This document shows, one piece after another, positions 7,510 through 23,687 of a DNA stretch of 64,000 nucleotides. Source of the DNA: an uncultured Gammaproteobacteria bacterium. Its GTDB lineage: Bacteria; Patescibacteriota; Patescibacteriia; UBA9570. The stretch's first letter is position 1. Each line of letters opens with the position of its first letter. A model generated the notes under the pieces. It searched no databases, was not told where the DNA came from, and was given only the letters and a program-made list of their open reading frames with translations. The stretch lies in contig CAYLOJ010000002.1 in assembly GCA_964385285.1 (NCBI GenBank), positions 67,246 to 131,245 of the forward strand, written 5' to 3'. The position numbers and the translations under genes are program-made.

Positions 7510-7568
7510 ATCTAATGTTGGGGTGCGCGCGGGAGAGAGATGAATCTACCTCCCACGCGTCTGCCCTC

Positions 7569-8441: not shown

Positions 8442-8478
8442 GCCGATCTCCTAGTTTGGCACGCACGTTGTAATGGAA

Positions 8479-8506: not shown

Positions 8507-8522
8507 TAGTTATACTAAATGG

Positions 8523-9215
8523 ATGAAACCAATTTTGATTATTCAAAACATTACGCGTGAGCAGGCTGGGCTAATAGAGGTTGTCTTCAATGAACAAGAC
8601 ATTCCATTTCATATCCTAGATTTAAGTAAGGAGAGCGTTATACCAAGTAAATTAGAAGAGTATAGTGGTGTTGTGATGATGGGTGGGCCGGATAGTGCCA
8701 ACGACACCACACCTAAAATGCAGAACGCTTTACAGTTGGCTAAACAAGCCTTGGATCTCCAATTGCCTTATTTGGGCATCTGTTTAGGTCATCAGGTATT
8801 AGCGAAAGCGGCTGGCGGTAGAGTAGTGCGTAGCCCTGTTAAGGAAGTTGGATGGAATTACACTATTCAGATTACTCCTACTGGTTTAATCAGTCCTTTA
8901 CTAAAGGATCTGCCAACACCGTTGCCGGTCTTTCAACTACACGGAGAGATGGTAATTACAACTCCCGAGATGCAAATTTTAGCTTCAGGTGAGGATTGTC
9001 CTGTACATATTATACAATGCGGGTCGGCAGCCTATGGTTTGCAGTGTCACTTAGAATTAACAGATGTACTGTATCAGATTTGGCTAGATCAGGATCCTGA
9101 TTTGCGTGCCTTGAATCGTTCACAATTAGAACAAGCATGGCAAACAGCCAAGGTTGAATACACAACCCATGGTAAACAATTAATCCACAACTGGTTGCAG
9201 CAATTTTCTAGTTGA
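8523..9215 (+). CDS. Class I glutamine amidotransferase domain protein. The upstream part of ORF 8028-9215 is antisense to the GC-rich hydrolase and is not coding.
   Basis: MKPILIIQNI...PYLGICLGHQVLAKAAGG carries the catalytic Cys in the G-x-C-x-G context. The GC content shifts at about 8450. Confidence 0.8.
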   Translation: MKPILIIQNITREQAGLIEVVFNEQDIPFHILDLSKESVIPSKLEEYSGVVMMGGPDSANDTTPKMQNALQLAKQALDLQLPYLGICLGHQVLAKAAGGRVVRSPVKEVGWNYTIQITPTGLISPLLKDLPTPLPVFQLHGEMVITTPEMQILASGEDCPVHIIQCGSAAYGLQCHLELTDVLYQIWLDQDPDLRALNRSQLEQAWQTAKVEYTTHGKQLIHNWLQQFSS

Positions 9216-9240
9216 CATTCAAAAAAGTTAGTGTTATAGT
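9212..9240 (+). promoter_or_regulatory. Strong sigma70-like promoter candidate TTGACA-N17-TATAGT upstream of rpsU, possibly the operon promoter for rpsU-yqeY and the giant-gene cassette
   Basis: Consensus -35 at 9212-9217 overlaps the GATase stop; -10 at 9235-9240; a GGAGGTG RBS lies 8 nt before ATG 9306. Confidence 0.45.
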
Positions 9241-9305
9241 CCAAGCAACTTTGAGACGTTCAAAGCTATATAATCTATTCTCTTCACCTGAGGAGGTGAA
9301 AATGT

Positions 9306-9560
9306 ATGCCAGCTATTTCAGTTCGACGCAACGAAACCGAATCAAATGAAAGTTTAGTTCGCCGTTTCGTCCGTAAAGTTCAAGCCAGCGGTAATTTACT
9401 GCTCGTTAAGAAAAAACAACATCGTCAACGCCCCATTAGCAAACGTTTGCAACGGCGTAGCGCCATTTTGCGTTCTGAGTCACGCGAGAAACGTGAACAC
9501 TTACGCAAGATTGGTAAACTCGATGTTCTCCAGGATCGCAAGCGGAAACCCCGCCGATAA
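9306..9560 (+). CDS. rpsU: 30S ribosomal protein S21
   Basis: MPAISVRRNE...LVRRFVRKVQASG...KRLQRRSA matches the S21 basic pattern and size. Confidence 0.85.
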   Translation: MPAISVRRNETESNESLVRRFVRKVQASGNLLLVKKKQHRQRPISKRLQRRSAILRSESREKREHLRKIGKLDVLQDRKRKPRR

Positions 9561-9574
9561 CATAACATTGTTCC

Positions 9575-10018
9575 ATGAGTGTTTTTTCCACGATTCAAAC
9601 TGACATGATCTCTGCCTTGAAAAACAAGGATTCAGTTAAGGTCTCAACACTACGTGGAATGAAGTCGGCGATCCAAAAAGATATTATTGATAACAAGGGC
9701 TCGTCTGATGATGATCAGCGAGCTTTTGTTATACTGAAACAAGAAGCCAAGAAGCGCGAAGATTCCATCACCGCATATGCCGCAGCTGGTCGACAAGATT
9801 TGGCTGATCAAGAAACTGCTGAGCTGGAGATTATTCGCTACTATCTTCCAGCACAAATGTCTGAAGCAGATCTCACGGCGCTGATTGTGCCATTGGTGGA
9901 GGCAAGTGCGGATAAGAATTTTGGTGCCTTGATGAAACAAGCAATGCAGGCAGCCAACGGGCAAGCCGATGGTAAATTGGTTTCTGCGGTGCTGAAAAAA
10001 TTACTGGCACAGCAATGA
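9575..10018 (+). CDS. yqeY: GatB/YqeY-domain protein
   Basis: AIQKD...ILKQEAKKREDSI..Y..AGR.DLA..E..E..II..YLP is the YqeY family pattern. It follows rpsU as in Firmicutes. Confidence 0.85.
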   Translation: MSVFSTIQTDMISALKNKDSVKVSTLRGMKSAIQKDIIDNKGSSDDDQRAFVILKQEAKKREDSITAYAAAGRQDLADQETAELEIIRYYLPAQMSEADLTALIVPLVEASADKNFGALMKQAMQAANGQADGKLVSAVLKKLLAQQ

Positions 10019-13000
10019 AAAAACATACACTGAAACGTGCCATACAACTCTTCGCCATTTCCAGTTTTGGTTGGGTAATCAGTGCCCAGTTTGCCTTTGC
10101 TCAAGTGAATACTGCGTATGACGGGTTTATTTTGGGTGACGCTTCTCCTATCGATATTATTATTGCCATTATCAACTGGACCTTGGCCATTTTGGCGTTG
10201 ATCGCAGTAGTGATTGTGCTCTGGGGTGGGCTCACCTGGATGTTTTCCCAGGGAGATGAAGAAAAAATTAGTAAAGCCAAGGCCATCTTAAGAAATGGCG
10301 TGATTGGTTTGACTATCGTTTTGGCAGCCTGGGGGATCGCCACCTATGTGATTAACCTATTTTTAGATCTAACTGACGCCTCCACAGCTGATTACATTCC
10401 ACCAGGGGACGTTTATGAACCATCCGATGGCTCACCATTTTATGTGGATCATTCTAATCCACGTGATAATGAGGAGGATGTTCCGCTTTGTCATATTGTT
10501 GCGGTCACGTTTTCGTATCCAGTGAATGAAACATCGATTACTGATAATTCATTCCAAGTCACTGTTGCCCAAGATGCCGCTTCGAATCCAGATGGTGGTC
10601 GTGGTAATAATGAAAGTTGTGCGGATGATGTTCAGTGTTTGTCTGGGATCTGTTCGGATAGTGGTGTTTGTTCAGGTGATCGTGTGGAAGGTTCGTTTGC
10701 CTTTTCTGAGAGTGATTATGCTGCAGTATTTTACCCAGCGGCAGATTATCTAGCTGACACCTTGTACGAAGTAGAATTAAGTACCAGTGTCGAAGGAATT
10801 AATCCAGATACCGGTGCTGTCTATAATCTAACCGCTGGCGATCCGAAGCGCATCTTCAATTTCACTACTGGTAGTAGTACGGATGATATCCCACCAAAGG
10901 TTGATGTCACCAGCGTGACTCCATATCCAAGCGATGGCGATACAGACATGTGTTTGAATCCGACGATTCAGGTATCCTTTTCGGAGAGTTTAGATCCAGC
11001 ATCACCATCCGACGAAAATGTTTGGTTGTATCAAGATATCGCAAGTGGCCCGAGTGATAGTTTAAATATTTCCTCCATTCGATTAACCAGTATTGGTGGT
11101 GAGGCAGATGATACGATCGTCACTTCACCGCAACAAGAATTATCTGAATTTACTGAGTACGGTTTGAATCTATATAGTGGCGATTCGACAACGGAAACAT
11201 TTGAAGGTGGAATTTATGATACGTGTGGTAATCCACTAAGTGGTGATTTTGATGATGACATGGAAGGTAGCCCGATTGATGATTTTGCGGACCCAACCTC
11301 AGCCGGGCTGGAGCAGGCCTTCTGCAGTTGTCTATCCGGTACAGATACGTGCAATGTTGCCGTGGGTGCCGATAGTTGTGCAATCGATGCGGACACCACC
11401 TGTACGTTAGATACGACTTGTTCAGATACGAGTGATGATTATGTAGGGTTTTCGTATCAATGGACCTTTACGACAGGGGATGAACCCTATTGTATTCCTG
11501 ATATCGAAACCATTAGCCAAGAAGATTATTACTATAGTGAAGATTTAGCACCCACTGGTGCAACAGGTAGTGAAGATAGCGGCAAAGTATTGCTGACTGG
11601 TAGCTATCTCTATCCATTCTATGATTTAGATTTCACAAACAACATGTCAGCGGCTGGTATGAACTGTTTCGACACAGATCATGCTGCGAACATGTCCTGT
11701 TTTGTCAGTAATGTTGGTAGTTCTATTATTACTGTGCGTACGCCTGTGCCAAGTCAAACGGGTCGTATTAGTGTTGAGAATAACAACGGTTCAGATTACT
11801 CTTCACAATCAGCGATTATTGATTCGCCATTTATCTTAAATAGTTCACCAACGGGCGGTCCAGCTGGGCAATATGTGACCATTCGTGGCAACAACTTTTT
11901 AGATTACGATCCAGAGGATCCATCGAGCAGCCGTGGCCAAGTATTCTTTGATGATGTTGAAGCTGAGGTTTTGTGTACAGATGGTTGGGATGATGATCAA
12001 ATTATTGTCCGTGTACCTGATGGTTTTGCCGTAGATGCACAACCATTAATGCAAGTCATCACCACTGAAGGTCGCTATAGTAACCAGGAGGGATTTGCCA
12101 TAACGGATGGTGAACCGGGTCCTGGGCTTTGTGAAATTGTGCCGAGCTGCAGCGATACAGGATTAGATGACATTACTGCCGTCGGTGAAAATTTTGGTGC
12201 AGATGGCACGGTCTATTTTGATCCGAGTGATGGTGATTATGTGGAAGGTGTCGTGAGTCAATGGGATGTTTACAATCCTACTTATGCTAGCCAAACTGTG
12301 GTGACAGACTCTACTCCTGTGACGGAGCGTGACGTGTACAATTTTACTGCTGCAAACAATGATGGGATTAGTAACGGTTTAGATTTTGAGATTACCTGTT
12401 CAGAGCCACCAAGTTTATTGCAGTATTTTCAATGCGATCTTGAAGCCGATACTTATTATTTGCCGAATCCAACGAATTATTCAGACAATGCCTGTGTGAA
12501 TAGTGTGGTGTATTTTGGATTCACCAATGCGATGGATGATACCTCAGTGGAGAATAATACAGCTGTGTATCGCTGCAATAACGATGATCAATTTGATGAT
12601 AGTGCCTGTACGACTAGAATCGATGGTTCATATGTGTCCGATTATCTGAATGCTGCTTATATCGGTGGAGATAGTGCTGAATTGCTGAACGGCACGCGAG
12701 ATATTGATGCCGACGGCGATACCGATGCAAGCGATGCATACAGCGCGTACACATTCTATCCTGACGGTGGTTTTGCAGCTGGCTACTACTATAAAGTGGA
12801 TGTTCCAATCACGACAACGAATCGTGACGGCGTACAATTAGATTCTGATTATAGTTGGCATTTCCAGGTTCGTGATGACGCTACCAACTGTGTGGCTGAT
12901 TATCTGGCGTTATCCCCGGCCACTGAACGTGTGAATTCCTACGATAGTTACGATGCTTGTATTGATAACACTACTTTTGAAGGAACTAGTTATTCTTTCC

Positions 13001-16000
13001 GCGCTCGTCCAGCTACTGCAGAATGTCTAGTACTAGATGATGCAGGGGATTACGAATGGGAGATTACTCAACCTGCCTCGACGGATATTCTAAAATTTGG
13101 CGATAATGAAACGAGCGGTGATAACCCCGGCACAAGCACTTCAGATACATCTACAATCGGATACAATACGGTCTGTTTACAAGGCGAAGAGGAAGATAAT
13201 GACGGTTTAGCAACTGTCAGTGCTAGCTTGCTGGATCCTGCCGATGGCAGCGTAGCCGCCAGTGACAGTTCAGATGTTGAAGTGGATTTTGGTTATTGCA
13301 CTCAAGATAGTGATTGTTATACCGATTCCTGTCGTGATACTTATTGTGATGCCGTCACATCACACTGTGCACCCGATATTACAAGTTTCACACCAGACAA
13401 TGCTTCCGGAGCTGATGTTGGTCCCGGTGGATGCGTTAGCTTAAATGGCTGTTACTTTGGATCGAGTCAAGATGAGGGTGGTTCCTGCACCTGTACCGAC
13501 TTAAGTAGTGAAGAAACCTGTACGATTGATGAAGGTGGAGTTGCTTGTTTATTACAAGGCGCTATTGATAGCTGCACATTAGGTCAAGATTTTTGTACAC
13601 TCGATAGCACCTGTTCCACCGAATCGGCATCAGCGAATTATGATTTAGGGTTTTTCCGTGGGTGTGATTGTACGACGACAGAAACCTCGCCGCGCACCTG
13701 TCGCGTGGCTGAGGGCGAAACTCAATGTGAGGTTGCTGGCACAGAAACCTGTTCTCCAACCATGACAGCATCGAACGGCACCTATACCGCTGGAGGTAGT
13801 GGTGAGGTCGCATTTGATACGACTACTGCATCCTATCCTTCGACGGTGATCTGTGGAGACGTTTGGGATCAAGATCAAGTGATTGTACAAGTGCCTGCCG
13901 ATGGTTCTGTTGCACCTGGTGACTACGCATTGAATTTAACTAGCTACTACGACTTGAGTGATACATATGGTACGGCATCCGGAGACGCTAGTGATTGTAC
14001 CGTCGGTAGTGATCCAACAGCATGTCTGTGTCGTGTCGATCCAGACTCTGGTCATGAAGGTGATACTAGTGATCTATACGGTGAGAACTTTAGTGTGCTA
14101 AGCGGGCATAACGAAAAAGTTACTTTTGATGGTCCATTAAGTAGGGTTGAAACAGATGGCACTGAGACCTGGGTAGACGATAATGTGATTACTAGTGCAG
14201 TTGTCCCGGATGGGGCGGTTAGTAGCGATGATGGTGTGCAATTGGAAAGTGATGTTGGCGATAGTAATGCACTGGATTATGCGGTCAGTTGCAGCTCCAA
14301 TTTAGATTGCGCAACAGGTTGTTGTAGCGCTGGCCAGTGTTCTTCAGCCGAGATTTGCAATGCATGTGAAAATGATACCGATTGTTCTTATGGACAATGT
14401 GCATCGGCTTGTGTAAGTGGTACTTGTGCCCCTTATATTTATGAGGTTAGTCCAGATACAGGCGCAGTAGGCCAGCCAGTTACGTTCCAAGGTTGCCATT
14501 TAGGAACTTACTATGACCCATCGCTTTACACTCCTGGCAGTCAGGTGACCATAGATGGTATCGTTGCTGACTTAGCTTGTAATGCAACGGATTCTTGGAA
14601 TAACTTACGCGTCATTGCAACCATTCCAGATGGCGTTTTCTCCGATGCAACTACAGACAGTGCCTTAGCACAAATTCAGCAGGTCTCTACGAGTAATGGT
14701 ACTCAAGTTGCTCAATTGAGTAATCAAGTACAATTTAATCGAGATGATAGTTGTTCTGAGGTCAATCTTCCAGTTTTGTGCGATGCGGACCCAGCGTATA
14801 GTCCGGTGCAAACATTGGCAGATAGCGTTGCAAATATAGAATTGAGTGGTGAAAATTTTAATGATGAATCGGATGGCTATTGCACCTGTACAACGGATTT
14901 AGGAGATTGCGATATTGATGAAGGTGGCACCTCCTGCACCGTCAGTAGCTCTACTACCTATTATGTGAATCCGGACTTTAGTTCCGAAACTTGCGCTGAT
15001 GGTAGTGTGGGTGCCGCTACTTCGAATGCGTATAGTTACTACGATGGCACGCTTGGATATTGTGTCTATACAGATCCGGATGACAGTAGTATTACCTGTA
15101 ACATTGCGGTTGGCGCCAGTACGTGTACGATTAGTAGCTCCGATACTTGTTACGCAGATGAAGCTGATCCAACTACAACTTGCACTGCGGCACTATCTAA
15201 TTTTACTGCGTTAGATGGCTCGGTACAGTACTTTGATGATCTAGAGGCCACGATTGATTGGTCTCAATACTATAGTACTCAATATATTACTGACGTTCCT
15301 GAGGGTAGTGAGACGGGCGATGTTCAAGCCATTGCTACGACCTCAGCGGGTACGCAATGCACTAGTAATGGACTGGAGTTTCCGGTTACCTGCTCAAGCT
15401 GTGGCGAATGTGGCAGTACACGCACTAATGCTCTGAACTGTAATTTAGAATATGATCCTGCCTTTGGCAGTTGCACAGCGGACACCACCGGTTTCTGTCG
15501 TGCCAATACGGGTTCCTGCTGTAACCAAACGAGTTGTTCGTATGATTCCAACGTATCCGATACTGAAGATTTAGGTACCTGTGAAGCACAGCCGTTACTT
15601 GAATTTGATGATCAGGACGCCGATGGCATGAGTGACGATTATGAGTTAACGTTAGGTGGTTATGACAGCACATTGCAGGATACGGATGGCGACGGAACCA
15701 TCGATTCTGATGAGAGTGGTTTATTCAACAATAATAATGCCTTAACAACAATTGACTCCGTAACGTATCCTACACCAAATGCCACTGATGTGTGTTCGAA
15801 TGCAGAGATTAAAATTCAATTCAATCAACCAATTACGACCAGTGACGTATTTAATCTAAACGATAATGATGTGACCGCCGATGATCCTGATACGGATATC
15901 GATGAGTCCGTGGTAGATGATTTGTTTACTGATGATGTAGCCCCCGAAGATATTGATTTTACAGACTATATCTATTTGCGTGCAGCCACGGGAGCTGACC

Positions 16001-18255
16001 CACTAACCAATAACACTACCGTGTTAAGTCATATTAGTATTTCTAGTGACGGTACGGTATTAACGCTGGAGCGCAATCGCAACATCGGGTTTAGTCGGGA
16101 TTTTGAAATCATTATCCGCAGTAATGATGCGGTTGTTGGTGGAACAGATCATCACTCAGGAATTGTAGATGCCGAAACCGGTGTCGCAGTTGGTTGCACA
16201 ACAGAAATGGATACGCTTGGCTTATGTAATGAGGGTTATATTCGCTATACCTTCACTACCAGTAGTCGGTCAGTGTATGAAGATAGTTGTGGCCCCTCTT
16301 ATGTATTGTTAGAAGCAGATAGTCAGTCGTTTATGGATAAAGACTATACCTTTAGTGAATCTGGCCAAGAGGAAGATATGAATGCCACCGTTTACGCTGT
16401 AGGTGTGGATGGTTATGCTGACAACGGCTTAACAGATGCCAACAGTGATGGTGTAGATGACGGAGTAGATGATCAACCGATCACTCGTATTGATGATGGC
16501 GTGGATGCTGGTTTTTGGTGGGAGTATGCCTGGGATCCTATTTATGACACCCTAGAAGATTTAGAAGCCGCTGCTTGTCCTGTGGCTGGCATTATCACTG
16601 AGGATGAAGCCGGCAGCTGTAGTTGTGAGATCACAGAAAGTTGTACGATTGCTTTGGGTAGTGAATCGTGCACAACTGGTAATGGCGTGACCTGTTATAC
16701 CGATTCACCGAATGCAGTTTGTGACGCGTTTGATTCAAACTATTCTGCATCCGGTTGTGCTTGTACCGTTGAAGATAGTTGCACAATGTTGGCGGCTGAA
16801 GCGAGCTGCACAACAGACGTGAATGGTACGGATGTAGAGTGTTCTACTGATTCCAGTTCGGCAGTGTGTGACGCAGGTGACACTAATTGGAGCGATGGTA
16901 GCTTTATTGAAGATGAGGCTACTCAAACGTTGACTTCTGATACCCCAGATGCCAACGCGGATAATACCGATACCGTGACCGTGACCGTGACAGGTAGTGG
17001 TTCTGTAGAAGATGGTTGGGGCAATAGCGGCGCCACTACTGATGATTTAACTGATAGCCTGCTCTACGATTTTGTCTACTGCAATCCAGATTATTTAGTC
17101 ACCTACAGCAATACGGCGTATAACTTCTATTGGTCATATTGTCGTGGTACGGATGCACAAAGTGAAAGTTTCTTACCAGAGTTTGACCAGGTCTTTAGTC
17201 GCAGCGATACCGCCATCGATACCGCCTACGGTAGTGATCAAGAATTTATCTATGAAGTAGGATTCAAAGATACACGTGCCGCTACGAATGATCCCACCAC
17301 CAATAATAATATTATTGTCTTGCGGGTTTATCCGAATGACTTAGATGCTGATCTCACTACGCCTGCCGATGCAGTCAATCCGGATCTTTGGTACTTACTT
17401 AACACCAATAATGCTGACGCGCAGACCGCAACCACAACAGTTGATGGGTATGATGCGGTAGAAGTAGGGAATACTGTATATGTCGCTGCCAGTAATTTAG
17501 ATGATACTTCAAGTGTGATTGCGCCGTATGTGTATGTCGTAGCTTACAGTACTGATGCCAGCGAGGAAACGGTGAGCGCTGCCGAGGCTCTCTTGGACGG
17601 CTTCAAATTTAATCGCAATACTACATTGTCGGATGAATGTGCGATTGAAAAGAGTAAATTAGTGGAAGATACTGACCGTGTGACTGATTTAGGGTCAGTA
17701 GCCTATTTACTGAGCGGTTATTACTACAATGATTCCGATGCTAATGACACTGACGATTTCCCAGCTTTGGATAGTGGGTCCTATATTAGTGGTCTAACAA
17801 CATCTGTTTGGCCATCCTGGGCAGATAATCTTGGAGACGAACTAGGACAGGCTCTGCCAACAGATCCAACCAACACATTTAATGATGCCAGTGTTCAATG
17901 TCCGTATGATCCACCAGATTTATCTATTGGTGAAACAGCAGGGACATATTATGACGAGTCTGGTACGTGTTGGGATCCAGTGTTGAAGGATTTCAACGGA
18001 CCTGCAGAATCGCATGTCTACCTCTATCAATATCAAGATGCAGATAACTTCGCTTTGTATTCTAACTTAGAGTACGATGGAACGGGTACGTGGATTAGCG
18101 GTAGTTATAATCCTTGCGATCAGTATGTGGACGGCACTAACGTAGCTACAAGTATTAGTGATTATTCGGATAATGGTTGCAAAACATTTGATTACGCAGT
18201 CGACAATAGTTTGACGACTGATAATACCGTCTATGCCGACCTTTTCGCCGATTGA
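10015..18255 (+). CDS. Giant (2746 aa) secreted, extremely acidic, Cys-rich cell-surface protein. It has a signal peptide, a two-helix T4SS-pilin-like (VirB2/TrbC-type, PF18895-like) N-terminal membrane anchor, multiple IPT/TIG-like beta-sandwich segments, TSP3-like Ca-binding Asp repeats and repeated Cys-rich modules. There is no LPxTG motif and no C-terminal TM segment.
   Basis: Uninterrupted 8.2 kb ORF. N-terminus is MKKHTLKRAIQLFAISSFGWVISAQFAFA, then ...LWGGLTWMFSQGDEEKISKAKAILRNGVIGLTIVLAAWGI. IPT-like stretch (VTIRGNNF...IIVRVPDG). DQDADGMSDD...DTDGDGTIDSDESG. Modules such as CSCLSGTDTCNVAVGADSCAID, CTCTDLSSEETCTIDEGGVACL, CTCTTDLGDCDIDEGGTSCTV and CSCEITESCTIALGSESCTT. Confidence 0.9.
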   Translation: MKKHTLKRAIQLFAISSFGWVISAQFAFAQVNTAYDGFILGDASPIDIIIAIINWTLAILALIAVVIVLWGGLTWMFSQGDEEKISKAKAILRNGVIGLTIVLAAWGIATYVINLFLDLTDASTADYIPPGDVYEPSDGSPFYVDHSNPRDNEEDVPLCHIVAVTFSYPVNETSITDNSFQVTVAQDAASNPDGGRGNNESCADDVQCLSGICSDSGVCSGDRVEGSFAFSESDYAAVFYPAADYLADTLYEVELSTSVEGINPDTGAVYNLTAGDPKRIFNFTTGSSTDDIPPKVDVTSVTPYPSDGDTDMCLNPTIQVSFSESLDPASPSDENVWLYQDIASGPSDSLNISSIRLTSIGGEADDTIVTSPQQELSEFTEYGLNLYSGDSTTETFEGGIYDTCGNPLSGDFDDDMEGSPIDDFADPTSAGLEQAFCSCLSGTDTCNVAVGADSCAIDADTTCTLDTTCSDTSDDYVGFSYQWTFTTGDEPYCIPDIETISQEDYYYSEDLAPTGATGSEDSGKVLLTGSYLYPFYDLDFTNNMSAAGMNCFDTDHAANMSCFVSNVGSSIITVRTPVPSQTGRISVENNNGSDYSSQSAIIDSPFILNSSPTGGPAGQYVTIRGNNFLDYDPEDPSSSRGQVFFDDVEAEVLCTDGWDDDQIIVRVPDGFAVDAQPLMQVITTEGRYSNQEGFAITDGEPGPGLCEIVPSCSDTGLDDITAVGENFGADGTVYFDPSDGDYVEGVVSQWDVYNPTYASQTVVTDSTPVTERDVYNFTAANNDGISNGLDFEITCSEPPSLLQYFQCDLEADTYYLPNPTNYSDNACVNSVVYFGFTNAMDDTSVENNTAVYRCNNDDQFDDSACTTRIDGSYVSDYLNAAYIGGDSAELLNGTRDIDADGDTDASDAYSAYTFYPDGGFAAGYYYKVDVPITTTNRDGVQLDSDYSWHFQVRDDATNCVADYLALSPATERVNSYDSYDACIDNTTFEGTSYSFRARPATAECLVLDDAGDYEWEITQPASTDILKFGDNETSGDNPGTSTSDTSTIGYNTVCLQGEEEDNDGLATVSASLLDPADGSVAASDSSDVEVDFGYCTQDSDCYTDSCRDTYCDAVTSHCAPDITSFTPDNASGADVGPGGCVSLNGCYFGSSQDEGGSCTCTDLSSEETCTIDEGGVACLLQGAIDSCTLGQDFCTLDSTCSTESASANYDLGFFRGCDCTTTETSPRTCRVAEGETQCEVAGTETCSPTMTASNGTYTAGGSGEVAFDTTTASYPSTVICGDVWDQDQVIVQVPADGSVAPGDYALNLTSYYDLSDTYGTASGDASDCTVGSDPTACLCRVDPDSGHEGDTSDLYGENFSVLSGHNEKVTFDGPLSRVETDGTETWVDDNVITSAVVPDGAVSSDDGVQLESDVGDSNALDYAVSCSSNLDCATGCCSAGQCSSAEICNACENDTDCSYGQCASACVSGTCAPYIYEVSPDTGAVGQPVTFQGCHLGTYYDPSLYTPGSQVTIDGIVADLACNATDSWNNLRVIATIPDGVFSDATTDSALAQIQQVSTSNGTQVAQLSNQVQFNRDDSCSEVNLPVLCDADPAYSPVQTLADSVANIELSGENFNDESDGYCTCTTDLGDCDIDEGGTSCTVSSSTTYYVNPDFSSETCADGSVGAATSNAYSYYDGTLGYCVYTDPDDSSITCNIAVGASTCTISSSDTCYADEADPTTTCTAALSNFTALDGSVQYFDDLEATIDWSQYYSTQYITDVPEGSETGDVQAIATTSAGTQCTSNGLEFPVTCSSCGECGSTRTNALNCNLEYDPAFGSCTADTTGFCRANTGSCCNQTSCSYDSNVSDTEDLGTCEAQPLLEFDDQDADGMSDDYELTLGGYDSTLQDTDGDGTIDSDESGLFNNNNALTTIDSVTYPTPNATDVCSNAEIKIQFNQPITTSDVFNLNDNDVTADDPDTDIDESVVDDLFTDDVAPEDIDFTDYIYLRAATGADPLTNNTTVLSHISISSDGTVLTLERNRNIGFSRDFEIIIRSNDAVVGGTDHHSGIVDAETGVAVGCTTEMDTLGLCNEGYIRYTFTTSSRSVYEDSCGPSYVLLEADSQSFMDKDYTFSESGQEEDMNATVYAVGVDGYADNGLTDANSDGVDDGVDDQPITRIDDGVDAGFWWEYAWDPIYDTLEDLEAAACPVAGIITEDEAGSCSCEITESCTIALGSESCTTGNGVTCYTDSPNAVCDAFDSNYSASGCACTVEDSCTMLAAEASCTTDVNGTDVECSTDSSSAVCDAGDTNWSDGSFIEDEATQTLTSDTPDANADNTDTVTVTVTGSGSVEDGWGNSGATTDDLTDSLLYDFVYCNPDYLVTYSNTAYNFYWSYCRGTDAQSESFLPEFDQVFSRSDTAIDTAYGSDQEFIYEVGFKDTRAATNDPTTNNNIIVLRVYPNDLDADLTTPADAVNPDLWYLLNTNNADAQTATTTVDGYDAVEVGNTVYVAASNLDDTSSVIAPYVYVVAYSTDASEETVSAAEALLDGFKFNRNTTLSDECAIEKSKLVEDTDRVTDLGSVAYLLSGYYYNDSDANDTDDFPALDSGSYISGLTTSVWPSWADNLGDELGQALPTDPTNTFNDASVQCPYDPPDLSIGETAGTYYDESGTCWDPVLKDFNGPAESHVYLYQYQDADNFALYSNLEYDGTGTWISGSYNPCDQYVDGTNVATSISDYSDNGCKTFDYAVDNSLTTDNTVYADLFAD

Positions 18256-18895
18256 ACCCACGCCAAATTCTAACTCAGGGGAGCTTGAAGATATCTTTGA
18301 AGATGGCGGCAGCAATCTTTATAATTCGATTCAAACGCAAACTACTGAGCCGGAGTCTTCTGAACAGGATGCTCCAACTTACTCAGTTCAGTCTAGATCC
18401 AATGGGGGTAAGCGCCGGATCCTAATCATTGCCACTTGCGTTCTAGCTCTGCTACTATTAGGTAGTGGTGGGGTGGGATTGTGGCTTTGGCTACAGACCC
18501 GTCCTGCGCCTGATCCAAATCTGATCATCAACAATCCTGTAAATACGAATACGAACACGAATGTGAATACAGAAGAGACCAATACCAATGTGGTCACTGT
18601 TCCGGAAATACCAACCAATACAAACACTACTACCAATACAAACACACAGAACTTTGTTGATGTAGATCACGATGGCCTGTCGGATGAAGAAGAGCTAGTG
18701 GTGAATACCAATCCGAAAAAAAAGGATACCGATGAAGATGGTCTATCAGATCGCGAAGAGGTGAGAGTCTATAACACCGATCCACGTAATCCTGATACAG
18801 ATGGTGATGGCTATAGCGATGGAGATGAAGTGACTAATTTCTATCATCCCAATCACCCAGATCCAAAAAAACGATTATTCGACTTACCACAATAA
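18233..18895 (+). CDS. Single-pass (N-in) membrane protein with an acidic cytoplasmic N-terminus, an Asn/Thr-rich low-complexity linker and three TSP3-like Asp-rich Ca-binding repeats. Overlaps the giant gene's 3' end by 23 nt.
   Basis: TM ILIIATCVLALLLLGSGGVGLWLWL; NTNTNTNVNT...TNTNTTTNTNT; DVDHDGLSDEEE / DTDEDGLSDREE / DTDGDGYSDGDE. Confidence 0.7.
   Translation: MPTFSPIEPTPNSNSGELEDIFEDGGSNLYNSIQTQTTEPESSEQDAPTYSVQSRSNGGKRRILIIATCVLALLLLGSGGVGLWLWLQTRPAPDPNLIINNPVNTNTNTNVNTEETNTNVVTVPEIPTNTNTTTNTNTQNFVDVDHDGLSDEEELVVNTNPKKKDTDEDGLSDREEVRVYNTDPRNPDTDGDGYSDGDEVTNFYHPNHPDPKKRLFDLPQ
18541..18660 (+). repeat. In-frame tandem hexanucleotide-type repeats (AAY-ACR)n encoding an N-T dipeptide low-complexity linker
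   Basis: aatacgaatacgaacacgaatgtgaataca ... accaatacaaacactactaccaatacaaacaca. Confidence 0.6.
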
Positions 18896-18905
18896 CAACA
18901 TTCAT

Positions 18906-20189
18906 ATGGATTTTCCTCAACAGCCCCAAAGTACTACACCATTTCCCGCTGCGCCTCAGCAACCTACCACACCTCCGCCTTTCCCCAATGTGGCTCAGCC
19001 CGGTGGGATGGCTAGTCCGATGATGAATAATGGTCCAATGATGCCGCCGGCAGCTGGCCCCATGCCTGGTGCTACTATGCCACCGATGGGAGCTGTGTCA
19101 CCAAGTTCCACAGTACAGATTCCAATTCAAAGTCATCCAGCCACTTTATCGTCCGACGAGCAGGTTTATACGATGCCTGAGAAGTTTTTGTCTTCCACAG
19201 CCGCTCCTGTCGCGATGCGTCCAAAAAAATCGAATAAAACTGTAACCATTATCTTGGTAGTCCTCATTACGCTAATGATCTTGGCTGCCGTTGGTGGCGT
19301 CCTCTACTATTTCTTAGTGTTATCCAAACAATCTACCACAATCACCGATGCTCAAAATGCCGTTGTGGTGAATAATGCTAATGTAGTGACCAATGCAAAT
19401 AATAGTAATGCCAATACAAACAGTTTGAATCAGAATGGCAACGATAATGCCAATACCAATGCGAATGATAATACCAATACAAATGCCAATGGCAACACGA
19501 ATGTAGTTGCAAATGATAATACCAATACAGTCAATGCCAATACAAACACGAACAGCAATGCGAATGTGAACGCCAATGGCAATACGAATAGTGTTGCCAC
19601 TACCGTAGTTCCACCCAGTGCAAAAGATACGGATGAAGATAGTTTGACCAATGATGAAGAAAAAGTTTGGGGCACAAAGGCTGATCTGCCAGATACCGAT
19701 AATGATGGTTACGCTGATGGTGTAGAAGTATTAGCTGGCTATGATCCGACTAATCCTACCGGTCGTCTGGCTACTAGCGCTTTGGTTGGTACCTTTACGA
19801 ATAGTGAGTATGGCTACACGATGAGCTATCCAAAAGATTGGTTAGCAGAGGCGTTGGCAGAGGGAGATGCGAGTGAGGTGCTATTTACTCCGAATACTCT
19901 TGATCTGACTGGCCAATTTGTCGCGGTCACGGTGACTGCTAATCCGACAGGCCTAACAGCAGTAGATTGGTATACTGATACTGCTAATGTCGATGAAACA
20001 AAAGTTGAAGTGGTCACTAACTTTGCCGGCAAAACGGGAGTATGGAGCGCTGATCGTACTACGGCTTATTATGCAGATTCAAATCATGTCTACGCGGTAA
20101 GTTATCGTTATGGCAGTAGTGATGAACTCTATTTCCCGACAAGTTTTGAGATGATGGTCAAAAGCTTCACTTTAACGGCTGCCAACTAA
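18906..20189 (+). CDS. Paralog-like single-pass membrane protein with a Pro-rich cytoplasmic N-terminus, a TM helix, an Asn-rich hexamer-repeat linker, TSP3-like Asp repeats and a C-terminal globular domain of about 150 aa with no recognisable family
   Basis: PQQPTTPPPFP...MPPAAGPMPGATMPPMGA; TM VTIILVVLITLMILAAVGGVLYYFLVL; NANTNANDNTNTNANGNTN; DTDEDSLTNDEE / DTDNDGYADGVE. Confidence 0.75.
   Translation: MDFPQQPQSTTPFPAAPQQPTTPPPFPNVAQPGGMASPMMNNGPMMPPAAGPMPGATMPPMGAVSPSSTVQIPIQSHPATLSSDEQVYTMPEKFLSSTAAPVAMRPKKSNKTVTIILVVLITLMILAAVGGVLYYFLVLSKQSTTITDAQNAVVVNNANVVTNANNSNANTNSLNQNGNDNANTNANDNTNTNANGNTNVVANDNTNTVNANTNTNSNANVNANGNTNSVATTVVPPSAKDTDEDSLTNDEEKVWGTKADLPDTDNDGYADGVEVLAGYDPTNPTGRLATSALVGTFTNSEYGYTMSYPKDWLAEALAEGDASEVLFTPNTLDLTGQFVAVTVTANPTGLTAVDWYTDTANVDETKVEVVTNFAGKTGVWSADRTTAYYADSNHVYAVSYRYGSSDELYFPTSFEMMVKSFTLTAAN
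19384..19612 (+). repeat. In-frame (AAT-RCN)n hexamer repeat tract encoding an N-A / N-T low-complexity linker
   Basis: aatgccaatacaaac...aatgccaataccaatgcgaatgataataccaatacaaatgccaatggcaacacgaat... Confidence 0.6.
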
Positions 20190-20193: not shown

Positions 20194-20601
20194 ATGCATC
20201 TAGAAGTGCGCAGAGTCGTGAAAGCGCCATTGTTTACCCCTGCTTTTGCACGCCAGGTACTGCAGGCTGTACGCAAACAGGTGGACTTACCAAAAGCCTG
20301 GAGCGAATTGAGTGTGGTAGTGGTGGGGGATGCAACCATTCGTCGTTTGAACGCTCAGTATCGTCAACAGACTTATATCCCTGATGTCTTGTCGTTTCCC
20401 TACGGACAGGATGGTGGAGAGATTGTGATTGATTATGCCCAAGCCAGACGCCAAGCAGCCCAAAAGCAGGTGGCGCTAAAACATGAATTAGCTTGGTTGT
20501 TGGTCCATGGCATCCTACATGTGATGGGTTATGATCATGAAACGGCAGCTGATGCCAAAGTGATGCGTCCTTTAGAACAAAAGATTTTGCGCTATGTTTA
20601 A
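20194..20601 (+). CDS. ybeY: rRNA maturation endoribonuclease YbeY
   Basis: HGILHVMGYDHE zinc-binding H-x3-H-x5-H motif at about 135 aa. Confidence 0.9.
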   Translation: MHLEVRRVVKAPLFTPAFARQVLQAVRKQVDLPKAWSELSVVVVGDATIRRLNAQYRQQTYIPDVLSFPYGQDGGEIVIDYAQARRQAAQKQVALKHELAWLLVHGILHVMGYDHETAADAKVMRPLEQKILRYV

Positions 20602-20971
20602 GCTAAAGAAATTGCAGGCCAGTTTTCGCTATGCCTGTCAGGGATTGCTCTATGTTTGGCGTCAGGAGCAAAATTTTCGCATTCAGAGCGGCGTTGCCTT
20701 GTTGGTCGTGATTGGTATGTTAGTGTTTCGCGTTACGCTCGGGGAAGCCATTATCCTCACGATGATGATCATCTTCGTATTGGTACTAGAAGTGGTCAAT
20801 ACTATTTTTGAGAAATTGGTAGATATCTTAAAGCCACGTTTACACAGTTATGTTGGGGTAATTAAAGATATGATGGCCGCGACCGTCCTGTTAGCAGCCG
20901 CGGGGTCAGTCGCGATTGCCCTAATGGTGTTCATACCGTATTGCCTCGAATTACTGCAATTGCTACAATAG
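20594..20971 (+). CDS. dgkA: Diacylglycerol/undecaprenol kinase (DgkA family) membrane protein
   Basis: Three TM segments and E..N..FE..VD...P.......KD..AA.VL.AA, typical of prokaryotic DgkA; the ybeY-dgkA adjacency matches Firmicutes. Confidence 0.8.
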   Translation: MFKLKKLQASFRYACQGLLYVWRQEQNFRIQSGVALLVVIGMLVFRVTLGEAIILTMMIIFVLVLEVVNTIFEKLVDILKPRLHSYVGVIKDMMAATVLLAAAGSVAIALMVFIPYCLELLQLLQ

Positions 20972-20975: not shown

Positions 20976-22229
20976 ATGAGTAAAGGCGATATTATTACTG
21001 GATTAGACATTGGCTCCACCACCATCCGTGTTGCGGTCGGTCAGATGAACCCACATGATAACGAGTTGCACATTATTGGTGCAGCTGAACATCCGGCTGA
21101 GGGAATTAACAAAGGGGTAGTGACGAGCATTGAAGATGCAGTGGCAAGTATTTCCGGTGCTTTAGACAAAGCTGAGCGGATGACTGGTATTCCGATCGAG
21201 CGCGCTTATGTCAGTGTAAATGGAAGTCATATCATCTGTCAGGATAGCCATGGAGTGGTAGCTGTTTCTAAAGCTGATGGAGAGATTCGTGAAGAGGATG
21301 TACAACGTGCCATTGAAGCTGCACAGACAGTGGCTACTCCACCAAATTACGAAATTCTACATGTCATCCCACGACAGTTTCAAGTAGATAATCAAGCCGG
21401 CGTCAAAGATCCAGTCGGAATGACTGGGATTAAACTAGAAGTGGATGCGCAAATTATTCTTGGTTTAACATCACAGGTCAAAAACCTAACGAAGTGTGTG
21501 TATCGTACCGGTACAGATATCCAAGATCTCGTCTTAGGTGTATTAGGGGTCAGTGAGGCTGTCTTAACTAAACGCCAAAAAGAGCTGGGTGTTGCTTTGG
21601 TGAATCTTGGAGGATTAACCACTAGTGTAATGGTGTTTGAAGAGGGCGACATGATTCATACGAAGATCTTGCCGATTGGTTCTGGACATATCACCAATGA
21701 TATTGCGATTGGACTACGTACCTCCGTTGATATTGCTGAGGTGATCAAGGCAAAATATGGTACAGCTGTCCCAGAAGATGTAGCCAAACATGAAGAGATT
21801 GATTTGCGTGAAATTGATCCGAACGAAAATAGTCGAGTATCGCGCAAAGAGGTTGCTGAAATTATCGAAGCCCGTTTAGAAGAGATGTTTACTTTGGTCA
21901 ATAAAGAGCTGAAAGCGATTAATCGTCATGGGATGTTACCAGCCGGTATTGTCTTAACTGGTGGTGGTGCAAAATTAACCGGTATTATTGAAGTGGCCAA
22001 AAAACAATTCTCACTACCGGCAGCTGTGGGCACGGCTCGAAAATTTAAAACTGCGATTGATAAGATTGAAGACCCTGTATTCGCTACAGCTCTGGGCTTA
22101 GTAGTATGGGGTGAAAATTTGGGTGGGGATACTCGCAATTCTGGCGGTCTGGCATCCTTAGCACGATTTTCAGCGGTAGGCGATGCGACCAATAAAATGA
22201 AGAAGTGGTTCAAGAGTTTGCTGCCTTAG
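20976..22229 (+). CDS. ftsA: Cell division protein FtsA
   Basis: Actin-fold ATPase with GLDIGSTTIRVAVG, and the following gene is ftsZ. Confidence 0.95.
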   Translation: MSKGDIITGLDIGSTTIRVAVGQMNPHDNELHIIGAAEHPAEGINKGVVTSIEDAVASISGALDKAERMTGIPIERAYVSVNGSHIICQDSHGVVAVSKADGEIREEDVQRAIEAAQTVATPPNYEILHVIPRQFQVDNQAGVKDPVGMTGIKLEVDAQIILGLTSQVKNLTKCVYRTGTDIQDLVLGVLGVSEAVLTKRQKELGVALVNLGGLTTSVMVFEEGDMIHTKILPIGSGHITNDIAIGLRTSVDIAEVIKAKYGTAVPEDVAKHEEIDLREIDPNENSRVSRKEVAEIIEARLEEMFTLVNKELKAINRHGMLPAGIVLTGGGAKLTGIIEVAKKQFSLPAAVGTARKFKTAIDKIEDPVFATALGLVVWGENLGGDTRNSGGLASLARFSAVGDATNKMKKWFKSLLP

Positions 22230-22262
22230 TAATAGACCTCCTCTGTCTTCGTTCCTCAGACA

Positions 22263-22290
22263 TCTCCTCCTCTTTTAGGAGGAGATTTAA
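22263..22290 (+). terminator. Hairpin ATCTCCTCCT-ctttt-AGGAGGAGAT after ftsA (a second weaker hairpin lies at about 22313-22336). Candidate attenuator/terminator between ftsA and ftsZ.
   Basis: Perfect 10-bp inverted repeat, with a weak T-tract after it. Confidence 0.4.
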
Positions 22291-22420
22291 ATTAGAATGA
22301 TCTCAATTACAACCCCTCTCCAAAAAGAGGGGAGGGGTGGCCGAGAGGCTGGGAGCGGTCTGTTAGAGTAAGTAGTGAGATAGGGTTATTTTTTTATGAG
22401 TACAAATTGTATTCAATGTG

Positions 22421-22449
22421 TTGACTTAAATGCAATAACCCAGTAGTAT
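22421..22449 (+). promoter_or_regulatory. Candidate promoter TTGACT-N17-TAGTAT upstream of ftsZ
   Basis: -35 at 22421-22426, -10 at 22444-22449, ftsZ ATG at 22491. Confidence 0.45.
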
Positions 22450-22490
22450 TCTTATTTGTATAGTTTAGCATTGAACAAAAATAGTGTTAT

Positions 22491-23642: not shown

Positions 23643-23656
23643 ACTCCAAACTAAAC

Positions 23657-23687
23657 TATCCTCGCTAACAAGCGGGGATAGTTTTTT
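23657..23687 (+). terminator. Rho-independent terminator after ftsZ
   Basis: 10-bp stem CTATCCTCGC / GCGGGGATAG (one G-U wobble), 5-nt loop, then TTTTTT. Confidence 0.7.

What the first reader, a model, noticed from the sequence alone, without database searches (positions are those of the whole stretch)
10015..20189. A 10 kb surface-protein cassette (pilin-anchored giant acidic Cys-rich protein plus two paralogous TSP3-repeat membrane proteins) inside the conserved rpsU-yqeY...ybeY-dgkA block
Three co-directional overlapping genes sit between yqeY and ybeY. In Firmicutes this is one conserved operon (rpsU-yqeY-floA-phoH-...-ybeY-dgkA-era), and here the middle is occupied by this cassette. The first gene is 2746 aa, very acidic (D/E/S/T-rich, few K/R) and Cys-rich, with a cleavable signal peptide. 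It then has a two-helix segment (LWGGLTWMFSQGDEEKISKAKAILRNGVIGLTIVLAAWGI) that matches the VirB2/TrbC-like 'T4SS pilin' N-domain found fused to diverse extracellular domains in CPR bacteria. There is no sortase signal and no C-terminal TM segment, so this pilin-like module is presumably the anchor or polymerisation element. It also has IPT/TIG-like domains and TSP3-like Asp repeats. The next two genes share an architecture: a disordered cytoplasmic N-terminus, one TM helix, an in-frame N/T hexamer-repeat linker, then the same DTDxDGxSDxEE Ca-binding-type repeats seen in the giant protein. This suggests a three-component, Ca-dependent surface complex. In an episymbiotic CPR lineage such a locus is a prime candidate for host-cell attachment or recognition. 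Neither the combination nor the Cys-rich modules match a named system known to me.
Basis: partly seen in the sequence, partly recalled or inferred. Interest (0 to 1): 0.8.

Follow-up and report, generated by a model that had tools for sequence, protein, structure and literature searches.

The report
Pilin-anchored giant surface protein operon
A clade of ultra-small Patescibacteria (Kerfeldbacteria and relatives) keeps, inside its ribosome and cell-division operon, a 2,746-residue acidic, cysteine-rich surface fibre anchored by a conjugative-pilin-like hairpin, plus two calcium-repeat membrane partners, making it a concrete but untested candidate for how these cells hold on to their hosts.

Summary
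Three co-directional genes (10015-18255, 18233-18895, 18906-20189) lie between yqeY and ybeY-dgkA-ftsA-ftsZ.

**Giant protein.** It has a signal peptide and a two-helix hairpin that passes Pfam T4SS_pilin (36.8 bits, cut-off 26.6). It also has Big_5 and IPT/TIG domains, 111 mostly invariant Cys and a net charge of -409. It has no LPXTG motif and no C-terminal TM segment.

**New findings.**
- The trio is not a recent insertion. S21-YqeY-giant-B-C-YbeY-DgkA-FtsA-FtsZ recurs in every related genome examined except one, down to 23% identity, including two ~1.08 Mb contigs.
- In that one distant genome the trio travels together at a different locus.
- The hairpin is the best-conserved part of the giant and is about 60% identical to free-standing 108-165 aa pilins.
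- Protein C carries an almost invariant cytoplasmic motif, [VI][YH]TMP[ED][KR]F.

**Not supported.** TSP3 repeats in the giant were not found; only DxDxDG loops are present.

**Best reading.** An anchor-stalk-head surface fibre with two Ca-binding accessory membrane proteins. Host attachment is plausible, since Kerfeldbacteria are reported as unusually firmly host-attached, but it is unproven.

**Novelty.** A new variant of a known kind.

The parts
9212..9240 (+). Best sigma-70-like promoter match (TTGACA-17-TATAGT with TG), just upstream of the S21-like gene. Possible start of the transcription unit.
   Evidence: Consensus match only (11/12).
9306..9560 (+). S21-like small basic protein (rpsU candidate).
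   Evidence: Pfam Ribosomal_S21 at 15.4 bits, below cut-off. The syntenic ORF in L019 has an unmarked Pfam S21 hit and the one in L020 a weak hit. Conserved in all loci.
9575..10018 (+). yqeY. Its stop codon overlaps the giant's start codon (ATGA).
   Evidence: Pfam YqeY at 127 bits. Junction sequence.
10015..18255 (+). Giant surface protein, 2746 aa.
10015..10104 (+). Signal peptide (aa 1-30), with the conserved A-x-A|Q-V site.
   Evidence: Read from the sequence and from the alignment of orthologues. No dedicated predictor was run.
10141..10380 (+). VirB2-like pilin hairpin (aa 43-122): TM1, a K/R-rich loop and TM2. It is the best-conserved part of the protein.
   Evidence: PF18895 at 36.8 bits, above 26.6. 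Hydrophobicity. 61-84% identity in all pairs compared. About 60% identical, by eye, to free pilins of 135-143 aa.
10432..11190 (+). Two Big_5 Ig-like domains (aa 140-392). The first carries a 4-Cys insert.
   Evidence: Pfam Big_5. Local HMMs.
11824..12405 (+). Two IPT/TIG domains (aa 604-797).
   Evidence: Pfam TIG at 39.2 bits. Internal repeats.
13291..15585 (+). Cys-knot / IPT array (aa 1093-1857). It holds four IPT-like domains, two of them split by inserted 'CxC' modules, a 12-Cys knot (aa 1424-1473) and a Cys-rich block (aa 1795-1857).
   Evidence: Internal repeats and local HMMs. Cys 90-100% conserved.
15610..15714 (+). Asp-rich stretch with two DxDxDG loops (aa 1866-1900).
   Evidence: TSP3_bac at only 8.6 bits, E 2.3, with weak EF-hand hits. 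Motif scan.
16612..16893 (+). Tandem CxC modules 6 and 7 (aa 2200-2293). They are present in about 60% of orthologues.
17077..17604 (+). PsbP/Mog1/LpqN-like domain of the head (aa 2355-2530).
17605..18252 (+). C-terminal alpha/beta domain (aa 2531-2746). It has no recognisable relative and is the second-best conserved part at long range.
18233..18895 (+). Protein B, 220 aa. It has a cytoplasmic tail with E-D-I-F, a TM helix (aa 63-87, nt 18419-18493), an N/T-rich spacer and three TSP3_bac repeats (aa 143-205, nt 18659-18847).
18906..20189 (+). Protein C, 427 aa. It has a Pro-rich cytoplasmic tail with the VYTMPEKF motif (nt 19164-19190), a TM helix at aa 111-140 (nt 19236-19325), an Asn-rich spacer (nt 19353-19601, with a hexamer repeat at 19434-19529), TSP3 repeats (nt 19614-19757) and a PsbP-fold domain at aa 290-425 (nt 19773-20180).
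20194..20971 (+). ybeY and dgkA. They are conserved immediately downstream of C.
   Evidence: Synteny.
20976..23642 (+). ftsA and ftsZ, in the same gene string.
23653..23684 (+). Strongest terminator-like hairpin (14-bp stem followed by a T-run), directly after ftsZ.
   Evidence: Pattern match only.

Best explanation
The three genes encode a conserved cell-surface apparatus of a Patescibacteria clade (Kerfeldbacteria and relatives).

**The giant protein (inferred mechanism).**
- It is exported by Sec and its signal peptide is cut at AFA|QV.
- It is then held in the cytoplasmic membrane by a VirB2-type helical hairpin, with both ends outside the cell and the K/R-rich loop inside.
- From the second helix, about 2,620 residues project outward as an anchor-stalk-head fibre.
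- The stalk is a chain of roughly a dozen Ig-like Big_5 and IPT domains. It is stiffened by conserved Cys knots and inserted CxC modules, and is very acidic, with a few DxDxDG cation loops.
- The head is a PsbP/LpqN-like domain followed by a conserved alpha/beta domain of unknown fold.

**Proteins B and C (inferred mechanism).**
- Both are bitopic membrane proteins. Their disordered Asn/Thr spacers are long enough to cross the wall.
- The spacers present Ca-binding TSP3 repeats outside the cell. C also presents a second copy of the PsbP-like domain.
- They most likely dock onto or organise the giant protein in a cation-dependent way.

**Expression and function.**
- The unit appears to be expressed together with S21, YqeY, YbeY, DgkA, FtsA and FtsZ, that is, with growth and division.
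- The most likely function is attachment to, or contact with, a conserved ligand on a host or partner surface.

**Shown versus inferred.** Shown: the genes, the domains, the conservation, the synteny and the folds. Inferred: the topology, the extended shape, disulfide or metal use by the Cys residues, Ca dependence, the B/C-giant interaction, co-transcription and the adhesive function.
For: **Anchor.**
- PF18895 passes its threshold and the segment has two hydrophobic helices.
- The same module occurs as free 108-165 aa pilins and as the N-terminus of many proteins of 387-3647 aa.
- There is no other TM segment and no LPXTG motif.

**Stalk.**
- Big_5 and TIG hits, plus internal IPT and CxC repeats.
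- Cys positions are 90-100% conserved across 31 orthologues.

**Head.**
- Both ends of the protein are better conserved than the stalk.
- A related pilin-Big_5 protein ends in a SUEL lectin domain, showing the same anchor-stalk-binding-tip logic.

**Partners.**
- B and C have TSP3_bac repeats.
- The PsbP-like profiles of the giant and of C align with each other at E 0.004.
- The three genes are adjacent in all 15 or so independent genomes examined, and also in L016 where the flanks differ.

**Core role.**
- The gene is single-copy and collinear, and diverges at about the rate of YqeY and YbeY (40% versus 47-51% identity to L001).
- It is kept on contigs of about 1.08 Mb.

**Operon.** Genes overlap or have tiny gaps. 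The best promoter-like site lies before S21 and the best terminator-like site lies after ftsZ.

**Ecology.** Kerfeldbacteria were the CPR lineage enriched in the >2.5 um fraction, which the authors interpreted as particularly strong host attachment (PMC7906910).
Against: - There is no expression, localisation or binding data.
- No domain with a known ligand was found in this protein.
- The head is as conserved as housekeeping proteins and shows no hypervariable region. That is unusual for host-specific adhesins and fits a structural role equally well.
- The hairpin is far more conserved than a plain membrane anchor needs to be: 61-84% identity with invariant G71, G72, G80, K89 and G98. This hints at a specific assembly partner.
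- 111 Cys in an extracellular protein of a presumably anaerobic groundwater organism needs an oxidising or metal-loading system, and none was seen in the window.
- The hhalign link between the giant and C has low probability (8%).
- Signal-peptide cleavage and topology were not run through a dedicated predictor.
Confidence: 0.55

Rival explanations
1. **Pilus display.** The N-terminal module is a working pilin. The T4SS machinery of Patescibacteria would extract it from the membrane and build it, together with small free pilins, into a conjugative-type pilus. The 2,600-residue extension would then sit on the pilus surface or tip as its adhesin.
For: - The hairpin is about 60% identical to free-standing pilins and is the most conserved part of the giant.
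- VirB2-like pilins, pilin arrays and VirB4 are widespread in Patescibacteria, and the pilin array is essential in Southlakia (PMC12102498, PMC10633639).
- In L003 and L016 a second or third pilin-fused protein lies next to the giant, like a pilin array.
- In VirB2/TraA pili both termini face outward, so a C-terminal extension is topologically allowed (my own knowledge of the F-pilus structures; not tested here).
Against: - No T4SS gene lies in the 64-kb window or next to the trio in any locus.
- A filament made of subunits each carrying 2,600 residues is sterically implausible, so incorporation could only be rare or terminal (inference).
- PF04956 (TrbC/VirB2) does not match. The NCBIfam pilin-like conjugal model scores only 20.7 bits against a cut-off of 40.
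Confidence: 0.2
2. **Envelope scaffold.** The giant, B and C would form part of the cell's own surface coat. This would be an S-layer-like or wall-spanning, cation-binding lattice built during growth and division, rather than an adhesin. The cytoplasmic motifs of B and C could tie it to the divisome.
For: - Strict vertical conservation in a housekeeping and division gene string, with even divergence and no variable tip.
- Extreme acidity in all orthologues, with net charge from -54 to -550.
- An invariant cytoplasmic motif in C, and ftsA two genes downstream.
- CPR cells imaged by cryo-TEM carry a periodic surface layer (PMC7906910).
Against: - No SLH or other wall-binding domain is present.
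- A single 2,746-aa chain of Ig-like domains with a distinct head looks like a fibre, not a lattice subunit.
- S-layer proteins usually have little or no Cys (my own knowledge).
- The trio also occurs away from ftsA/ftsZ, in L016.
Confidence: 0.18
3. **Recent insertion.** The trio would be a recently acquired, lineage-specific cassette that displaced the floA/phoH genes found between yqeY and ybeY in Firmicutes.
For: - In Bacillus the yqeY...ybeY interval holds other genes (my own knowledge of the B. subtilis map).
- L016 shows that the trio can sit elsewhere.
Against: - G+C content and skew do not differ from the flanks.
- The same order is found in every related genome down to 23% identity of the giant, with the flanking genes diverging in parallel.
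- There are no mobile-element genes or repeats at the borders.
Confidence: 0.03

Closest known systems
VirB2-like T4SS pilins of Patescibacteria (Pfam PF18895; Quinonero-Coronel 2025, PMC12102498; Wang 2023, PMC10633639)
   Same: The giant has a signal peptide followed by a two-helix hairpin, and its HMM match is above threshold. Its sequence is about 60% identical to free pilins of 135-143 aa.
   Different: - Described pilins are small and are often found in arrays near virB4.
- Here the module is the N-terminus of a 2,746-aa protein in a ribosome and division operon, with no T4SS gene nearby.
- The papers I found treat only small pilins and do not mention such fusions.
Giant Ig-repeat surface adhesins of monoderm bacteria (e.g. 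S. aureus SasG, PMC4458895; the Mobiluncus mulieris 7651-aa adhesin, PMC10619420)
   Same: Both are long chains of Ig-like domains projecting a distal part away from the cell. The Mobiluncus protein also has intradomain cross-links, including disulfides.
   Different: - There is no LPXTG/sortase anchoring.
- The anchor is N-terminal and in the membrane.
- The domains are diverse and collinear among orthologues, not near-identical tandem copies (internal repeats are 27-55% identical).
- Cys-rich modules are inserted into IPT domains.
Ca-binding giant adhesins secreted by T1SS (Salmonella SiiE, PMC6272769)
   Same: Both are very large, acidic, Ig-domain rods in which Ca-binding is expected to stiffen the fibre.
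   Different: - This protein has an N-terminal Sec signal and a membrane hairpin instead of a C-terminal T1SS signal.
- The organism is a monoderm.
- No BIg or RTX repeats were detected.
TSP3-repeat envelope proteins of Myxococcus (CglD, MtsD; NCBIfam NF033765, NF047639)
   Same: B and C give sub-threshold matches through their TSP3 Ca-binding repeats. Those proteins act in cell-surface adhesion and cohesion.
   Different: Scores are far below the cut-offs (37.6 against 400, and 19.3 against 800). Only the repeats are shared, and the architecture is different.
PsbP/Mog1-fold extracytoplasmic proteins (cyanobacterial PsbP, M. tuberculosis LpqN, Apa and Mtc28, DcrB, BT_1490)
   Different: Sequence identity is 6-19%. 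The Pfam PsbP models are not reached (E 0.013-0.022). No ligand can be inferred.

Membership tests
T4SS_pilin (PF18895), VirB2-like pilins of Patescibacteria | Match to the family HMM above its gathering score | tested here: met
   36.8 bits against 26.6, at aa 48-112. A profile of the orthologous hairpins retrieves 73,099 cluster representatives at E<=1e-3.
T4SS_pilin (PF18895), VirB2-like pilins of Patescibacteria | Signal peptide followed by two hydrophobic helices joined by a short charged loop | tested here: met
   Hydrophobicity windows at aa 43-80 and 90-120, with the loop SQGDEEKISKAKAILRNG. The pattern is conserved in 34 homologues.
T4SS_pilin (PF18895), VirB2-like pilins of Patescibacteria | Small stand-alone protein (about 100-165 aa) | tested here: not met
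   The protein is 2,746 aa, and the pilin module is only its first 125 aa or so.
T4SS_pilin (PF18895), VirB2-like pilins of Patescibacteria | Encoded near virB4 or other T4SS genes | tested here: not met
   No T4SS family appears among the annotated ORFs of the window or of the related loci. The rest of the genome could not be read.
T4SS_pilin (PF18895), VirB2-like pilins of Patescibacteria | Polymerises into a pilus | not testable with these tools
   This needs multimer modelling or microscopy.
TrbC/VirB2 (PF04956) of diderm T4SS | Match to the family HMM | tested here: not met
   PF04956 is not listed at E<=0.1. tblastn of the hairpin against 72,556 plasmids found nothing.
Sortase-anchored Ig-repeat adhesins (MSCRAMM type) | C-terminal LPXTG motif, hydrophobic segment and basic tail | tested here: not met
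   There is no LPXTG in any large ORF and no C-terminal hydrophobic segment.
Sortase-anchored Ig-repeat adhesins (MSCRAMM type) | Array of Ig-like domains | tested here: met
   Big_5 and TIG hits, plus internal IPT repeats.
Bacterial TSP3 repeat proteins (PF18884): proteins B and C | Match to TSP3_bac above its gathering score | tested here: met
   B scores 64.4 bits with 3 repeats. C scores 26.1 bits against a cut-off of 25. The Asp positions are invariant in 69 C homologues.
Bacterial TSP3 repeat proteins (PF18884): the giant | Match to TSP3_bac | tested here: not met
   8.6 bits, E 2.3, on aa 1856-1912.
PsbP/Mog1 fold superfamily | Structural match of a confident model | tested here: met
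PsbP/Mog1 fold superfamily | Sequence match to the Pfam PsbP or PsbP_2 model | tested here: not met
   C-terminal part of C: E 0.013-0.022, at 15-16 bits against cut-offs of 23.5-27. Giant head: none in 20 orthologues.
S-layer proteins of monoderms | SLH or other wall-binding domain | tested here: not met
   No such Pfam family was found in the giant, B or C.

The most novel reading that the evidence does not exclude
The hairpin would not be a passive anchor but a true pilin. The patescibacterial T4SS would then build a conjugative-type pilus, in a monoderm, that carries this 2,600-residue Cys-rich fibre as its adhesin. B and C would be its assembly platform. The invariant cytoplasmic motif of C ([VI][YH]TMP[ED][KR]F) would bind the actin-like FtsA encoded two genes downstream, by analogy with PilN-PilM or FtsN-FtsA. 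Host attachment and cell division would then be physically coupled. That would match the observation that attached CPR cells are the ones that replicate (PMC7906910).
Probability: 0.1. Interest if true: 0.85.

Novelty: new variant of a known kind. Interest (0 to 1): 0.6.

Why it matters
- How uncultivated Patescibacteria recognise and hold on to hosts is largely unknown outside Saccharibacteria, where type IV pili and a T4SS with pilins are essential.
- This locus gives a specific, clade-wide candidate in the CPR lineage reported to attach most firmly to hosts. The gene takes up about 0.5-0.7% of contigs of about 1.08 Mb, apparently whole genomes.
- It shows that the 'T4SS pilin' module is used as the N-terminal module of very large surface proteins. 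This use was not discussed in the T4SS surveys I could read, which looked for small pilins.
- It also provides testable pieces: a well-modelled PsbP-like ectodomain, TSP3 repeats, a conserved head domain and a cytoplasmic peptide motif.

Tried and rejected
1. **TSP3 repeats in the giant.** Scanned directly and not significant, so I relabelled them as DxDxDG loops.
2. **Pilin-like head.** The last 215 aa reminded me of the globular head of CPR type IV pilins and pseudopilins (RD..R..DL...YY...P...LP.DP.N...Y.Y...LY.NLE). This is a lead from memory only, and no test supported it:
   - Foldseek against PDB gave nothing at E<=0.001;
   - neither the sequence nor a profile hit any PDB pilin;
   - no Pfam family was found in 20 orthologues;
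   - there was no match to the one prepilin in the fetched loci.
3. **N-glycosylation sequons.** Not enriched: 36 observed against 29.5 +/- 4.6 expected.
4. **Whole-protein self-BLAST.** It returned only the identity hit. Splitting the protein into pieces worked.
5. **Look-up of the window's own giant in the contig index.** Not on record.
6. **Foldseek against afdb50.** The library was unavailable.
7. **Word-indexed search with the head-domain profile.** It returned only two fragments, so the domain's wider distribution remains unknown.
8. **Context of free pilins and of other pilin-fused giants.** The contigs were too short. Two free pilins lie next to rpsT.
9. **tblastn of the hairpin against plasmids.** No match.
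10. **Literature searches.** I searched for a description of pilin-fused giant proteins or of this operon and found none.

Full report
**Observation**

The window holds the three ORFs exactly as described: 10015-18255 (2746 aa), 18233-18895 (220 aa) and 18906-20189 (427 aa). Pfam confirms the neighbours:
- Upstream: HisRS, HIT and YqeY.
- Downstream: YbeY, DgkA, FtsA and FtsZ.

The 84-aa ORF before yqeY is only weakly S21-like here (15.4 bits). Its syntenic counterpart in a related genome has an unmarked Pfam S21 hit.

The gene junctions are tight. There is an ATGA overlap, a 23-nt overlap, and gaps of 10 and 4 nt. The best promoter-like site in 17 kb lies just before the S21 gene (9212-9240). 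The strongest terminator-like hairpin lies just after ftsZ (23653-23684). This is suggestive only, but it fits a single S21-to-ftsZ transcription unit.

**The giant protein**

Composition is as claimed: D+E 17.3%, K+R 2.4%, S+T 21%, 111 Cys and net charge -409. Hydrophobic segments occur only near the N-terminus.

Other domain findings:
- Big_5 is found repeatedly, and an IPT/TIG domain passes threshold at aa 605-673.
- There is no LPXTG motif.

Piecewise self-comparison and local HMMs gave the following map:

| Region (aa) | Feature |
|---|---|
| 1-30 | signal peptide |
| 43-122 | pilin hairpin |
| 140-392 | two Big_5 domains |
| 437-469 | 'CxC' six-Cys module |
| 604-797 | two IPT domains |
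| about 816-960 | Big_5-like domain |
| 1093-1120 | Cys knot |
| 1120-1794 | four more IPT-like domains, two of them split by inserted CxC modules; 12-Cys knot at 1424-1473 |
| 1795-1857 | Cys-rich block |
| 1866-1900 | Asp-rich stretch with DxDxDG loops |
| about 1916 | another Big_5-like domain |
| 2200-2293 | two tandem CxC modules |
| 2296-2746 | head |

The claimed TSP3 repeats in the giant are not supported (TSP3_bac 8.6 bits, E 2.3).

**Relatives and synteny**

A database search found 35 full-length homologues of 1788-3253 aa at 70% down to 23% identity. Those that carry a name are Candidatus Kerfeldbacteria or 'Patescibacteria group' MAGs. All are acidic and contain 2.8-5.5% Cys.

In a 31-sequence alignment the proteins are collinear and most Cys positions are 90-100% conserved. 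The CxC modules are the main presence/absence differences.

The gene order HisRS-HIT-S21-YqeY-giant-B-C-YbeY-DgkA-FtsA-FtsZ is identical in every locus read except one:
- Five loci found through exact-protein look-ups.
- Eleven species-level genome contigs.
- Two contigs of about 1.08 Mb, found through homologues of protein C. Their giants are 1864 and 2352 aa and are still homologous at both ends.

In the most distant relative, L016, the flanks are different (ClpP and SecD). The pilin-fused giant(s), B and C are nevertheless still adjacent.

Against L001 the giant is 40% identical, YqeY 51%, YbeY 47% and FtsZ 83%. Base composition does not differ from the flanks.

The trio is therefore an old, vertically inherited functional unit, not a recent insertion.

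**The pilin module**

A profile of the orthologous N-termini, searched against 1.84 billion representatives, gave 73,099 hits at E<=1e-3 and 20,935 at E<=1e-10. The module occurs in three forms:
- Alone, in proteins of 108-165 aa.
- In tandem copies.
- As the single N-terminal domain of proteins of 387-3647 aa.

Free pilins such as P0133 and P0128 are about 60% identical to the giant's hairpin and end where the giant's extension begins.

Nine other fused proteins all show pilin plus Big_5 and/or TIG, and one ends in a SUEL lectin domain. Another carries BNR/Sortilin repeats.

Within the giant family the hairpin is the most conserved region in every pair compared (61-84% identity), and the C-terminal domain is next at long range.

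Published surveys describe VirB2-like pilins, pilin arrays and their essentiality in Southlakia, but treat them as small proteins. I found no description of these fusions.

No T4SS, type IV pilus, sortase or Dsb gene lies in the window.

**Head domain and partner proteins**

AlphaFold2 on aa 2296-2746 with 20 orthologues gave pLDDT 78 and pTM 0.81.
- The last ~215 residues have no match by Foldseek, PDB sequence search or Pfam.

Profile-profile alignment links the two PsbP-like domains. Giant aa 2360-2520 aligns with C aa 293-408 at E 0.004 and 27% identity, but with low probability.

B and C resemble each other only in their TSP3 repeats.

C belongs to a family of at least 178 proteins. These carry an almost invariant cytoplasmic motif, [VI][YH]TMP[ED][KR]F, 12-25 residues before the TM helix. 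In the fetched loci the motif is found in C orthologues only. B orthologues share an E-D-[IV]-F motif near the N-terminus.

**Interpretation**

The evidence best fits an anchor-stalk-head surface fibre:
- A membrane hairpin of pilin type.
- A long acidic chain of Ig-like domains stiffened by conserved Cys modules and a few cation loops.
- A conserved distal head.

Two bitopic partners accompany it. Their spacers could cross the wall and present Ca-binding repeats and a second PsbP-like domain. Topology, extension, disulfide or metal use, Ca dependence and the interactions are all inferences.

An adhesive role is plausible for three reasons:
- The architecture itself.
- The lectin-tipped relative.
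- The report that Kerfeldbacteria, unlike most CPR lineages, are enriched in the >2.5 um fraction. The authors read this as particularly strong host attachment, and they also saw replication associated with attachment (PMC7906910).

Against a host-specific adhesin, divergence is even along the protein and there is no variable tip.

Two rivals remain open:
- **Pilus display by the T4SS.** This is favoured by the very high conservation of the hairpin and its identity with free pilins.
- **A structural or division-linked envelope scaffold.** This is favoured by the operon context and by the cytoplasmic motif of C.

**Comparison with known systems**

| Test | Result |
|---|---|
| Hairpin: PF18895 by HMM and by architecture | met |
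| Whole protein: the family's small size | not met |
| Whole protein: T4SS neighbourhood | not met |
| PF04956 | not reached |
| Monoderm adhesins: Ig-domain chain | shared |
| Monoderm adhesins: sortase signal | absent |
| Monoderm adhesins: near-identical repeats | absent |
| B and C: TSP3_bac membership | met |
| PsbP relationship | fold level only |

I therefore file it as a new variant of a known kind. It is a giant Ig-domain surface protein with an unusual pilin-type N-terminal anchor and two dedicated partners, fixed in a housekeeping operon of one CPR clade.

Noticed in passing
window 27677-28576 and 28536-29987 (+): The ribonucleotide reductase large subunit is split into two overlapping ORFs (N-terminus plus barrel positions 2-241, then barrel 248-523 plus TSCPD). 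Related genomes have one ORF of 954-1168 aa. This could be a frameshift, an assembly error or a real split.
   Followed up: partly
window 56421-57758 and 57709-58578 (+): ComEC-like protein in two overlapping ORFs: DUF4131 plus Competence, then the metallo-beta-lactamase domain.
   Followed up: no
window 23785-26445 (+): An 886-aa protein with a signal peptide and many Asn/Val-rich repeats that look like a right-handed beta-helix. It has no Pfam hit. It lies directly after the ftsZ terminator and is absent at that position in L001, L002 and L019.
   Followed up: partly
window 19164-19190 (protein C aa 87-95) and all C orthologues: An almost invariant cytoplasmic peptide motif, [VI][YH]TMP[ED][KR]F[LM], lies 12-25 residues before the TM helix (M and P in 67 of 69 sequences). 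Its partner is unknown. ftsA lies two genes downstream.
   Followed up: partly
L003 6032-7963 and L016 838-3549 / 3588-9740 / 9782-13003: More distant relatives have one or two extra pilin-fused Big_5 proteins next to the giant. In L016 the head domain sits on a separate 1073-aa ORF.
   Followed up: partly
L017 10001-10408 and L018 753-1184: Free-standing pilins about 60% identical to the giant's hairpin lie next to rpsT (S20) on two independent short contigs.
   Followed up: no
window 36000-42000 (also 1-2000 and 62000-64000): G+C rises from about 0.45 to 0.52-0.53. The 36-42 kb stretch holds a sigma-70-like protein, two ORFs without Pfam hits and Fpg. It adjoins a TPP riboswitch (36205-36302, - strand) that sits in front of a solute-binding/ABC transporter operon.
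   Followed up: no
window 51359-53434 (-): A 691-aa membrane-anchored protein with no Pfam or NCBIfam match.
   Followed up: no
window 47497-50680 (-): A folate-pathway cluster (GTP cyclohydrolase I, chorismate-binding enzyme, class IV aminotransferase and pterin-binding enzyme).
   Followed up: no
L006, L007 and L008 record titles: Three contigs that carry the Kerfeldbacteria-type operon (FtsZ up to 90% identical to the window's) are titled 'uncultured Gammaproteobacteria bacterium' in their records. This is probably a labelling artefact.
   Followed up: no
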